A stretch of 63,689 nucleotides of DNA from Carcharhinus longimanus (Eukaryota): positions 63,847,328-63,911,016 of the forward strand of contig JASCQW010000043.1 of the NCBI GenBank assembly GCA_030264375.1, read 5' to 3'. The position numbers are program-made. Shown here piece by piece: positions 57,001 to 60,000 of the stretch. Every line of letters begins with the position of its first letter. Within the stretch, counting starts at the first letter, position 1.

Positions 57001-60000
57001 AGCTGTGTCCTTGTACCTTTCATCTAAGTTATTCATATAAATTGTAGAAAGTTGAGCTCCTAGCACTGATGGCACACCACTAGCTACGTCTTGCCAACCA
57101 GAAAACTTGACTTTATGCTTGTTCTTTCCTGTTAACTGGTCAATCTCTATCCATGCCAGTTGCTTACTACTTGAGCTTTCATTTTAGGCAATAACTTTCC
57201 TTTGCTGTGGCATCTGATCATATTCATATAATCATCGAATCTCTACAGTACAGAAGCCTTTGGCCCACCAAGTCTGTACTGACCACAATCCCACTTAGGC
57301 CCTAATCTCATAACCCCACACATTTACCCTGCTAATCCCCGACACACGGGTCAATTTAACGTGGTGAATCTATGTAACCGGCATATCTTTGGACTGTGGG
57401 AGGAAACCCATGCAGACACAGCGAGAACATGCAAACTCCACACAGACTGTGACCCGAGGCCAGAATTGAACCTGGTTCCCTGGCACTGTGAGGCAGCAGT
57501 GTTTGCCACTGTGCTGCCCAAAATTCCTTCTGGAAATCTGAATATGGCACATCCAAAACCTTCATTTTATCCATAACAAATGTGACTCCATCAAAAAACT
57601 CCAATAAATTGGTCAAACATGAATTCTCTATGTTGACAACCTTGAACTTTTTTCCAAGTGCCCTGCTACAAAATCTTTAATAATCGTTTCTAAGCATTTA
57701 CCTGTGACAGATGTTAAGCTAACTGGCCGATAGTTTCCTGCTTTCTGTCTCCCTCTCTTTTTTTGCTAGTTCCAATCAAGTGGATCCTTCCCCATATCTC
57801 AAGAGTTTGGAAAATTGAAACAAGTACAACAACAATCTCACTGGCTAAGACCCCAGAAGTGGCATTACCGTCGGCGCTGTCTTTTGGCTGAAATGTTAAC
57901 GCACAGTTTGCTTCAGACAGATGTAATTTGAAGAGCAGGGAGGGGCATATCATTTCTCAACCACCATCTCATTGCCCTGAGCTATGCTACCCACTGAGCC
58001 TTCATGGCAGCTTCTAACTCTGGCAAAATCTGTCCTTGTCTTTTGTAAATCGGATCTGTGTGTCTCTCTCTCTGTTGCAGACTGGATGTTGAATCAAAAA
58101 TATGGAGCTGTGCCCCTGTACCATGACACACGGTGACTCTGATCTGGAAAAGCACCATTCTTCAGCAGGCCCAGGTTTGAGGGTGCACCTGTACTGGTCA
58201 AATGAAGGCTCGCAAGACCTTGTTTATACAGAAGGGGAGATGGTTGCAGAGGACATCTGCATTACGGCAGCGCAGAAATGCTGTAAGGAAGCTTTAAATT
58301 ATTTCATCCATCCTTCCAATAAGTGTCTTTTTACATATTTATCTAAGCATCTTGATCAAGTTGGAGGCATTTGTTTCTGTGGTGTGGGAGTAAATGCACC
58401 CCCAGAGTGATATTGAGCATATGTACTGGCCCTATACTGGGTAGTTATAGTTGGGGCAGGGATAGAGTTGCTACCCCCTGGCGCAGGATGGCCCAGAGCA
58501 GAGACAGGGATCTCCAAGTGTATGAAGGATGATTACTGCTGGAATTCAATTGTTTGTTACCTCATTATGTTCCACCATGGAGCCCTGGCCAACTCCTCGG
58601 TGCTTGTCTAGCTGGGATGGTCAGACTTGTTGGAATGCTGGCTTGCAAGAGTTTATCTGGAGCAGGACAATGAGCATCACAGCTCATGGTGACTGCTTGA
58701 TACCCAGTCCCATTCAGAAGTTGGTCAGTTATCCCCAATATCCTGGAATTCTCCAGGCTGAGGTTGCTACACATAATAATGTCCAAACTTCATGGACGGG
58801 AATGCTATCTTGAAGCTCCCAATAACACTCATTACCCAGGGGAAGAATTGACTGTGTAACCAAGTTTGATTCATGTGTGTGTTCTTTTTTAAAGCCATTT
58901 CCCCACTCTGCCACAACCTGTATGCACTTTGTGACTTAAAAGAGAAACTTTGGTTTCCTCCAAATCATGTCTTCAAGATTGACAAGGACCTGTGTCTGAC
59001 TCTTCACTACCGCATGAGGTAGGTATAAAGTTTTCAGTGCTCCCAATGCTGTCTATCCAATTCTAAGCTTTGCTCACCTGACCACTATTAGCACAGCCAA
59101 TTCCTCTCAGTCAGGACAAATAAAATCAGAACTTGCTGAGAGTTTGGAACCCAACACAGAGACCCTACACATTTCAAAAGTTTCAGCATTTTCTCTCCCC
59201 ACTGAAAGCAGAAGAGGCAATATCCCCATGATTGAGGGACGAGAGAGATATAAGCAACAACTCACTCAGTCATTTGGCTTGGGAACCTTGAGCAAGAAGC
59301 AATTATTTCTCACTTTCTCTGACCAATCTCCTGCATAATCCCAGAGCTTTTCACTTTAATTCTCAATGCGACCTAATCACTGATTCTGGTAATCTGACCA
59401 GTGCGCTCACCTGATGAAGGAGCAGCACTCCAAAAACTTGTGCTATCAAATAAACCTGTTGGACTAGGTGTTGTGAGACTACTTACTGTGTTAGATCCCC
59501 CAGATAACTATTACACTGTAAATCAACTGGCTTCACTGGACTCTGGCTTCCACACATGCTTCACATTCCACTCTCAAAAAGACACGTCTTAGAATCCTCT
59601 TCCAAGCAGTTTTTTCCCTTAACTATTTTCAGCAAGGATCCACTTCCAGGATTTCAGCTCTCTTTTTGGTATTTCTCTGCCTTGAATTGTCATGTGCATT
59701 TAAACTCCTATATTATCTCTCAGGTACTCAGCCATGCCAATAAAACATGACTGCTTCACAGACTGTTCTAACGTCAACAGCCTTAGGGTTGTTTCAGATA
59801 TCTGGCTTCTTATGAGCGAACTTCCACAGGCCTTTNNNNNNNNNNNNNNNNNNNNNNNNNNNNNNNNNNNNNNNNNNNNNNNNNNNNNNNNNNNNNNNNN
59901 NNNNNNNNNNNNNNNNNNNNNNNNNNNNNNNNNNNATTCCCTGCCATGTCCCAACCTCCAGTAAGTGCCCAAAGGTAGAAATCTGTCACTCACCTTCTCT

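What the first reader, a model, noticed from the sequence alone, without database searches (positions are those of the whole stretch)
58081..59018. Two intact JAK/TYK2 FERM exons nested on the same strand inside lamin B1 intron 1
Seen: two exons (181 coding nt and 124 nt) with canonical AG/GT sites, matching phases, no stops and a 612-bp intron. They encode a 101-aa JAK FERM N-terminus and lie between lamin exon 1 and exon 2. I found no next JAK exon (expected FYF.NWHG) before lamin exon 2 or in the rest of the window. Known: I recall no vertebrate JAK gene lying inside a lamin gene, and same-strand nested or interleaved genes are rare. Inference: this is either a partial segmental duplicate of TYK2, a truly interleaved gene, or a mis-scaffolded contig. 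The segment is bounded by 100-N gaps at 54248-54347 and 59836-59935.
Basis: partly seen in the sequence, partly recalled or inferred. Interest (0 to 1): 0.8.

Follow-up and report, generated by a model that had tools for sequence, protein, structure and literature searches.

The report
Shark TYK2 exons, probably mis-scaffolded
Two intact first coding exons of a shark TYK2 kinase gene sit on a small gap-bounded piece of sequence placed inside the first intron of the lamin B1 gene, and this placement is most likely an assembly error, not a real nested gene.

Summary
Two exons lie at 58081-58282 (ATG at 58102, 181 coding nt) and 58895-59018 (124 nt). They have canonical splice sites and a 612-nt intron, and encode residues 1-101 of a JAK FERM F1 lobe. 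Each exon searched alone is orthologous to chondrichthyan TYK2: exon A matches 42-49 of 60 residues and exon B 34-39 of 40. They keep 62 of 64 positions invariant in six cartilaginous-fish TYK2 proteins, so there is no sign of decay. No other part of the ~1180-aa protein is in the window. The host gene is lamin B1 (exon 1 at 31850-32208, exon 2 at 62050-62206). The exons lie on a 5.5-kb contig bounded by two fixed 100-N gaps. It is one of five small pieces strung between the two lamin exons. Its left end is a LINE tail that also opens two other pieces. It has no CpG island and no third exon. In both species where both genes were listed, TYK2 and LMNB1 are on different chromosomes. Best reading (about 0.68): genuine TYK2 5' exons on a misplaced contig. 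Rival (about 0.22): a young, non-functional partial duplicate. The shark assembly and reads could not be searched, so this stays unproven. Interest is low.

The parts
58081..58282 (+). TYK2 first coding exon (exon A): 21 nt of 5' UTR with an in-frame TGA at 58090-58092, ATG at 58102, 181 coding nt (60 codons + 1 nt)
   Evidence: Sequence read and translation. Pfam FERM_F1 33 bits, profile 1-37. 71-82% identity by BLASTP to six chondrichthyan TYK2 proteins. tblastn to residues 1-60.
58283..58894 (+). Intron between the two TYK2 exons, 612 nt, GT...AG, phase 1
   Evidence: Unique within the window.
58895..59018 (+). TYK2 second coding exon (exon B), 124 nt, donor GTAGGT at 59019, leaves phase 2
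   Evidence: Pfam FERM_F1 52.4 bits, profile 39-78 of 96. 34-39 of 40 residues identical to six chondrichthyan TYK2 proteins.
54348..59835 (.). The 5488-base contig that carries the two exons. It has no internal gap and a fixed 100-N run on each side.
   Evidence: GC 0.435, CpG o/e 0.26, no CpG-island-like window.
54248..54347 (.). 100-N scaffold gap to the left of the contig
   Evidence: The flanks are LINE 3' parts in opposite orientation.
59836..59935 (.). 100-N scaffold gap to the right of the contig
   Evidence: Both flanks are unique in the window.
54348..54418 (+). LINE 3' tail at the very start of the contig, 97% identical to the first bases of two other gap-bounded units (38558-38628 and 47513-47583)
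56146..56485 (.). Interspersed SINE-like repeat, one of about 15 copies spread over the window
   Evidence: for example 88% identity to 5503-5644.
57221..57519 (.). Second copy of the same SINE-like repeat, inverted relative to 56151-56483. It sits between LINE reverse-transcriptase fragments at 56875-57183 and 57628-57765 (minus strand).
   Evidence: RVT_1 sub-threshold hit, E = 0.0021, for 57631-57765 minus strand.
31850..32208 (+). Lamin B1 exon 1, coding part (ATG at 31850, donor GT at 32209, leaves phase 2), inside a CpG island at 31701-32350
62050..62206 (+). Lamin B1 exon 2, 157 nt

Best explanation
The two exons are the genuine first two coding exons of this shark's TYK2 gene (residues 1-101, the start of the FERM F1 lobe that in the JAK family helps to bind cytokine-receptor tails). 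They lie on a 5.5-kb contig that a second-round scaffolder, which writes fixed 100-N gaps, inserted among other small contigs between LMNB1 exon 1 and exon 2. On this reading the nesting belongs to the scaffold and not to the genome. The rest of TYK2 lies elsewhere in the assembly, probably on a different, smaller chromosome, and that locus lacks these two exons or breaks off just before its exon 3. Shown: what the exons are, that they are intact, that they are isolated in the window, and how the scaffold is built. Inferred: that the placement is wrong.
For: (1) Orthologue-grade conservation. Exon A keeps 32 of 34 and exon B 30 of 30 positions that are invariant in six chondrichthyan TYK2 proteins. 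The window has 2 and 0 private changes, against 0-5 and 0-1 for the real orthologues in the same leave-one-out count. The ATG, an upstream in-frame stop and all four splice sites are intact. A misplaced piece of the working gene predicts exactly this.
(2) Only residues 1-102 of about 1180 are in the window. The F1 domain is cut at profile position 78 of 96, so the pair cannot make a folded domain alone.
(3) The contig has no CpG-island-like window, whereas lamin exon 1 has one. The acceptor at 58080/58081 implies an upstream exon that is not identified.
(4) Scaffold anatomy. There are 14 N-runs in 63.7 kb. Eight are fixed at 100 N and six have other lengths (10-843), which suggests two rounds of scaffolding. 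The lamin 'intron' between 38558 and 59835 is made of five units of 1.6-6.7 kb joined only by 100-N runs, and the TYK2 contig is one of them.
(5) The contig starts in a 71-bp LINE tail. That tail is 97% identical to the first bases of two of the seven other units that follow a 100-N gap, so 3 of 8 such units start with it. The contigs therefore break in a high-copy repeat, where scaffolding links are least reliable.
(6) At the left gap the two flanks are LINE 3' parts in opposite orientation, so no single repeat copy bridges the join. At the 38458 gap the flanks are colinear.
(7) In both species for which both proteins were listed with their contigs, the genes are on different sequences. In Scyliorhinus canicula, TYK2 is on 26.0 Mb and LMNB1 on 200.0 Mb. 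In Narcine bancroftii, they are on 375.7 Mb and 494.5 Mb.
(8) The exon A search looked at proteins of 106-2000 aa and found no lamin-B1 isoform or other protein with a TYK2-like N-terminus. All 6 hits among the 7 candidates are TYK2.
Against: Nothing in the window shows directly that the joins are wrong. No reads, depth, mate pairs or second copy of the locus could be examined. The contig shares the same SINE and LINE families as its neighbours (88-97% identity), so it is from the same genome and could belong here. Its GC content (0.435) lies within the spread of the neighbouring units (0.384-0.447). It is on the same strand as lamin, and its exon B donor has the same phase as lamin intron 1; both are compatible with a real insertion, though each is also expected by chance (1/2 and 1/3). 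A very young real duplicate would look just as intact. The opposite LINE orientation at the left gap is weak evidence, because inverted neighbouring LINEs are common. The LINE reading itself rests on recalled motifs and two sub-threshold RVT_1 hits.
Confidence: 0.68

Rival explanations
1. The placement is real. A young DNA-level partial duplicate of the 5' end of TYK2 (two coding exons with their intron) was inserted into LMNB1 intron 1 in the sense orientation. It is a non-functional gene fragment, an unprocessed partial pseudogene too young to have decayed.
For: The intron is retained, so the copy is not a retrocopy. The contig carries the same repeat families as the rest of the scaffold. 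Only the first two coding exons are present, which fits a truncated duplication. There is no CpG island and the F1 domain is incomplete, which fits a dead fragment.
Against: There is no sign of relaxed constraint: 62 of 64 invariant positions are kept and all signals are intact, so the duplication would have to be very recent. TYK2 and LMNB1 are on different chromosomes in 2 of 2 species with both listed, so it would need an inter-chromosomal event. The fragment happens to fill exactly one small contig bounded by two gaps of unknown size, which a scaffolding error explains more simply. No duplication junction or target-site duplication can be seen, because both ends run into gaps.
Confidence: 0.22
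2. The exons are real alternative 5' exons of a chimeric transcription unit. A transcript that starts upstream of 58081 and splices exon B to lamin exon 2 would stay in frame. It would encode a TYK2(1-101) head fused to lamin B1 lacking the part encoded by its exon 1.
For: The exon B donor leaves 2 nt of a codon (phase 2), and so does lamin exon 1, so exon B to lamin exon 2 keeps the lamin frame. Both are on the same strand.
Against: Matching phase is a 1-in-3 coincidence. No promoter-like CpG island lies upstream in the contig. The TYK2 part would be a broken F1 lobe. No protein of 106-2000 aa in the database joins a TYK2-like N-terminus to lamin (6 of 6 hits are TYK2). Used as cassette exons after lamin exon 1, the reading frame stops after 15 codons (read). 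This reading also needs the placement to be real.
Confidence: 0.03
3. A complete TYK2 gene is truly nested in or interleaved with LMNB1, and its remaining exons lie in the gaps or beyond the window.
For: Same strand. The 817 bases after exon B and the 100-N gap of unknown true size could hide more sequence.
Against: The 2.1 kb between the right gap and lamin exon 2, and the 1.5 kb after it, hold no TYK2 exon. The remaining ~1080 residues would have to be interleaved with lamin exons. In two other cartilaginous fishes the genes are on different chromosomes.
Confidence: 0.03

Closest known systems
TYK2 of cartilaginous fishes (NCBI models of Carcharodon carcharias, Scyliorhinus torazame, S. canicula, Pristiophorus japonicus, Narcine bancroftii, Leucoraja erinacea)
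   Same: Exon A matches residues 1-60 (42-49 of 60 identical) and exon B matches residues 62-101 (34-39 of 40). There are no indels, and the start codon and FERM F1 motifs are the same. The Carcharodon protein is itself closest to human TYK2 domain by domain: kinase 484 against 417 bits for JAK1, pseudokinase 427 against 377, FERM-SH2 486 against 468.
   Different: Only about 9% of the protein is present here, and the rest of the gene is not in the window. Exon B alone scores slightly higher against human and mouse JAK1 than against human TYK2 in the PDB (42 against 35 bits). The paralogue call therefore rests on the shark proteins and not on that exon alone.
Chimeric scaffold: a small contig misplaced by a scaffolder (a known assembly artefact; general knowledge, no paper read)
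   Same: A short contig bounded by fixed-length gaps, ending in a high-copy repeat, and carrying exons of a gene that lies on another chromosome in related species.
   Different: Not demonstrated here. No read, depth or linkage data were available.
Unprocessed partial pseudogene or gene fragment from a segmental duplication, lying in a host-gene intron
   Same: A 5' fragment of a gene with its intron retained, sitting in the intron of an unrelated gene.
   Different: Such fragments usually show at least some decay, and a parent copy can be shown. Here there is no decay, and the parent copy could not be looked for.

Membership tests
JAK-family FERM F1 lobe (Pfam PF18379 FERM_F1) | Score above the curated gathering cut-off | tested here: met
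   Exon A 33.0 bits and exon B 52.4 bits against a cut-off of 26.1.
JAK-family FERM F1 lobe (Pfam PF18379 FERM_F1) | Complete domain encoded | tested here: not met
   Profile positions 1-37 and 39-78 of 96 are covered. The last strands would be in the next exon, which is absent from the window.
TYK2 orthologue | Best matches are TYK2 and no other JAK paralogue | tested here: met
   6 of 6 significant hits for exon A are named TYK2 or TYK2-like. The shark reference is closest to human TYK2 in each domain. Caveat: exon B alone is marginally closer to mammalian JAK1 in the PDB.
TYK2 orthologue | Full gene (FERM, SH2, pseudokinase, kinase) at the locus | tested here: not met
   Only residues 1-102 of 1179-1187 are found in the window. 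The best E for residues 100-260 is 0.46.
Nested (intron-hosted) gene | Uninterrupted sequence joining the guest gene to the host exons on both sides | tested here: not met
   The guest contig is separated from both host exons by 100-N gaps, five gaps towards exon 1 and one towards exon 2. There are no end overlaps of 12 nt or more between any of the 15 units.
Nested (intron-hosted) gene | A complete transcription unit (promoter to terminal exon) inside the intron | tested here: not met
   No CpG-island-like window in the contig. No exons after the second.
Partial duplicate / unprocessed pseudogene | A parent copy of the same exons elsewhere in the same genome | not testable with these tools
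Partial duplicate / unprocessed pseudogene | Signs of relaxed constraint (stops, frameshifts, lost splice sites, excess private substitutions) | tested here: not met
   None seen. 62 of 64 invariant positions are kept, and private changes number 2 and 0 against 0-5 and 0-1 in the orthologues.
Lamin B1 (host gene) | Exons 1 and 2 match lamin B1 and no other lamin | tested here: met
   The listed rows that carry a name mostly read lamin-B1, Lamin B1 or LMNB1, some only 'Lamin' or an uninformative label, and none reads lamin A or B2. The top four hits are at 89-91% identity. Exon 2 is 157 nt and 74-84% identical. Pfam Filament hit E = 1.5e-25.

The most novel reading that the evidence does not exclude
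The placement is real. A very young, still intact copy of the TYK2 promoter-proximal coding exons has landed, in sense orientation, in LMNB1 intron 1 of this shark. Because the exon B donor and lamin intron 1 share phase 2, the copy could be spliced in frame onto lamin exon 2, giving a chimeric TYK2-head/lamin-B1 transcript.
Probability: 0.2. Interest if true: 0.4.

Novelty: not a real feature. Interest (0 to 1): 0.15.

Why it matters
If the placement is an artefact, which I think most likely, it matters only for curation. The scaffold is chimeric at 54.2-59.9 kb. The TYK2 model of this assembly will lack its start codon and first 101 residues. Gene predictors may also produce a false lamin/TYK2 chimera or a false 'TYK2-like' fragment. 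If the placement were real, it would be a modest curiosity: a fresh inter-chromosomal exon duplication into a host intron, in phase with the host gene. That is raw material for exon shuffling but has no demonstrated function.

Tried and rejected
- Further TYK2 exons. Full-length tblastn with three proteins, a sensitive tblastn with residues 100-260, and a six-frame motif search found nothing. The single NWHG hit at 57161 on the minus strand is a four-letter chance match inside a LINE fragment.
- Foreign exons in the other small units of the intron. Ten long ORFs between 33.9 and 61.1 kb gave 0 Pfam families. This does not exclude short exons.
- Contig end overlaps that would reveal the true neighbours. 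None of 12 nt or more among the 15 units in any orientation.
- Base composition as a marker of chromosomal origin. The contig's GC is 0.435, against 0.384-0.447 for the other units, so this is inconclusive.
- Rfam at gathering thresholds on the whole window: 0 matches.
- Literature. Three searches, and only the listings were seen. 8 papers hold TYK2 + cartilaginous fish + JAK1 + synteny, and none by its title or abstract start is about TYK2 gene location in sharks. 1 paper holds LMNB1 + 'nested gene' and is unrelated. 2 papers hold the Hi-C misplacement terms and were not read. No paper was opened, and supplements are closed.
- Contamination from another organism is rejected. The contig shares 88-97% identical SINE and LINE copies with the other units.
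- The joined 101-residue model was deliberately not built, searched or folded. Each exon was handled alone.
- The third homologue search, the representative search, the atlas, structure prediction and the complex job were not used, because none could bear on where the contig belongs.

Full report
**1. The observation**

- Exon A follows a polypyrimidine tract and the acceptor ttgcag at 58080/58081. It has 21 nt of leader with an in-frame TGA at 58090-58092, then an ATG at 58102 and 181 coding nt up to 58282. The donor GTAAGG follows.
- After a 612-nt intron and the acceptor ttttaaag, exon B runs from 58895 to 59018 (124 nt). Its donor is GTAGGT.
- Exon A translated alone gives 60 residues and exon B alone gives 40 residues, both without stops. 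Together with the two split codons this makes 101 codons plus 2 nt.
- The joined model was never built, searched or folded.

**2. What the exons are**

- Both peptides pass the Pfam gathering cut-off for the JAK-type FERM F1 lobe (PF18379). Exon A scores 33.0 bits over profile positions 1-37. Exon B scores 52.4 bits over positions 39-78 of 96.
- Exon A searched alone against proteins of 106-2000 aa gave 6 significant hits among 7 candidates. All 6 are named TYK2 or TYK2-like and all come from cartilaginous fishes: Carcharodon 82%, S. torazame 80%, Narcine 78%, S. canicula 78%, Leucoraja 73% and Pristiophorus 71%. There is no 100% match, so no full-length protein with this exact N-terminus is in that database.
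- Against solved structures, exon B is slightly closer to mammalian JAK1 (42 bits) than to human TYK2 (35 bits) or JAK2 (33 bits). Exon A gives only weak matches there.
- The paralogue call therefore rests on the shark proteins. I checked that the Carcharodon protein is closest to human TYK2 in each domain: kinase 484 against 417 bits for JAK1, pseudokinase 427 against 377, FERM-SH2 486 against 468.

**3. State of preservation**

- The six reference N-termini align without gaps over residues 1-102.
- Exon A is identical to them at 42-49 of 60 positions and exon B at 34-39 of 40. These values lie within the range the six show among themselves (40-57 and 33-39).
- The window keeps 32 of 34 and 30 of 30 positions that are invariant in the six.
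- In a leave-one-out count the window has 2 and 0 private changes. The real orthologues have 0-5 and 0-1.
- The two private changes (positions 16-17) lie in the variable leader before the F1 fold.
- There is thus no trace of relaxed constraint. These are either the working TYK2 exons or a very recent copy of them.

**4. What is missing**

- tblastn with three full-length TYK2 proteins found only residues 1-60/65 and 61-102 in the window. Every other HSP had E >= 1.2.
- A more sensitive run with residues 100-260, plus a six-frame motif search for the start of the next exon, gave only noise. The best E was 0.46, and there was one four-letter chance hit on the minus strand.
- The F1 domain is cut at profile position 78 of 96, so the pair cannot encode a folded domain on its own.
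- The contig has no CpG-island-like window. The only two in the whole window are at 851-1400 and at lamin exon 1, 31701-32350.

**5. The surroundings**

- The host gene is lamin B1. Exon 1 (ATG at 31850, donor after 32208) is 89-91% identical to lamin-B1 of Heptranchias, Chiloscyllium, Scyliorhinus and Stegostoma. Exon 2 is the 157-nt exon at 62050-62206.
- The window holds 14 N-runs. Eight are exactly 100 N and six have other lengths: 155, 20, 53, 843, 30 and 10. I read this as two rounds of scaffolding, the second writing gaps of unknown size. That reading is an inference.
- Lamin exon 1 lies in the unit 12867-38457 and exon 2 in the unit starting at 59936. Between them are five units of 1.6-6.7 kb joined only by 100-N runs. 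The TYK2 contig (54348-59835) is the last of these.
- The contig's first 71 bases are a LINE 3' tail. This tail is 97% identical to the first bases of the units starting at 38558 and 47510. Thus 3 of the 8 units that follow a 100-N gap begin with the same repeat.
- At the 38458 gap the left flank is a plus-strand reverse-transcriptase fragment (RVT_1, sub-threshold, E = 2.3e-4). One LINE copy could therefore bridge that gap.
- At the gap left of the TYK2 contig, the left flank carries the LINE C-terminal motif on the minus strand (54192-54218), while the tail after the gap is on the plus strand. No single repeat copy bridges that join. This is a weak point, and the motif names are recalled and not tested.
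- The contig's right end is unique in the window. No two of the 15 units overlap end to end by 12 nt or more.
- The contig shares SINE-like and LINE copies with the other units at 88-97% identity. It comes from the same genome and is not a contaminant.

**6. Synteny elsewhere**

- The protein searches list the contig on which each protein was seen.
- In S. canicula, TYK2 is on a 26.0-Mb sequence and lamin-B1 on a 200.0-Mb one.
- In Narcine bancroftii, they are on 375.7-Mb and 494.5-Mb sequences.
- These are the only two species for which both were listed, and in both the genes are on different sequences.
- In the other listed species, TYK2 sits on 12-45-Mb sequences and LMNB1 on 140-214-Mb ones.
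- A simple local mis-ordering of neighbouring contigs is therefore unlikely. The choice is between an inter-chromosomal scaffolding error and an inter-chromosomal duplication.

**7. Weighing the readings**

- A misplaced contig predicts everything seen: full intactness, an incomplete gene, no promoter, repeat-bounded contig ends, gaps of unknown size on both sides, and different chromosomes in relatives.
- A real duplicate needs three further things. The event must be very recent. It must have been inter-chromosomal. And the whole copy must coincide with one small gap-bounded contig whose junctions are hidden.
- My estimates are 0.68 for misplacement, 0.22 for a young dead duplicate, and 0.03 each for an in-frame TYK2-lamin chimera and for a complete nested or interleaved gene. 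The remaining 0.04 stays unassigned.

**8. Splicing phase**

- The exon B donor and lamin intron 1 are both phase 2, so splicing exon B to lamin exon 2 would stay in frame. This is a 1-in-3 coincidence, and no database protein shows such a fusion.
- Spliced in as cassette exons after lamin exon 1, the frame stops after 15 codons (read).

**9. What stayed unchecked**

- No paper was read beyond search listings, and supplements are closed.
- No contig looked human.
- The N stretches were left as they are.

**10. Verdict**

- The nesting is probably a scaffold artefact.
- Interest is low. The practical use is to flag the scaffold join and the probable loss of the TYK2 start exons from that gene's model.

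Noticed in passing
window 38558-38628, 47513-47583, 54348-54418: Three units that follow 100-N gaps begin with the same 71-bp LINE 3' tail (97-100% identical), so this assembly's contigs break systematically at one young LINE family.
   Followed up: partly
window 5503-5644, 7132-7326, 7645-7897, 12001-12151, 13667-13841, 19649-19828, 21811-22003, 43824-44099, 45975-46113, 49352-49438, 53365-53537, 56146-56485, 57221-57519, 60190-60328: About 15 copies of a SINE-like repeat (67-88% identical to the copies in the TYK2 contig) are scattered on both strands. 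Rfam at gathering thresholds recognises no tRNA or other RNA family in them.
   Followed up: partly
window 851-1400, with a 50-bp x 2.5 G+C-rich tandem repeat at 1162-1282: A second CpG-island-like stretch lies 30 kb upstream of lamin exon 1, possibly the promoter of a neighbouring gene. No conserved ORF was recognised there.
   Followed up: no
window 6078-6600: A long, imperfect TG/CA-rich low-complexity tract gives spurious open frames of 90-145 codons on both strands.
   Followed up: no
window 59017-59018 and 32207-32208 / 62050: The TYK2 exon B donor and lamin intron 1 have the same phase (2), so exon B to lamin exon 2 would be in frame. This is probably coincidence.
   Followed up: partly
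window 48424-49266: The largest gap (843 N) lies within one of the small units of the lamin intron. Stop-to-stop ORF listings across N-runs give long artificial X-filled frames that should be ignored.
   Followed up: no
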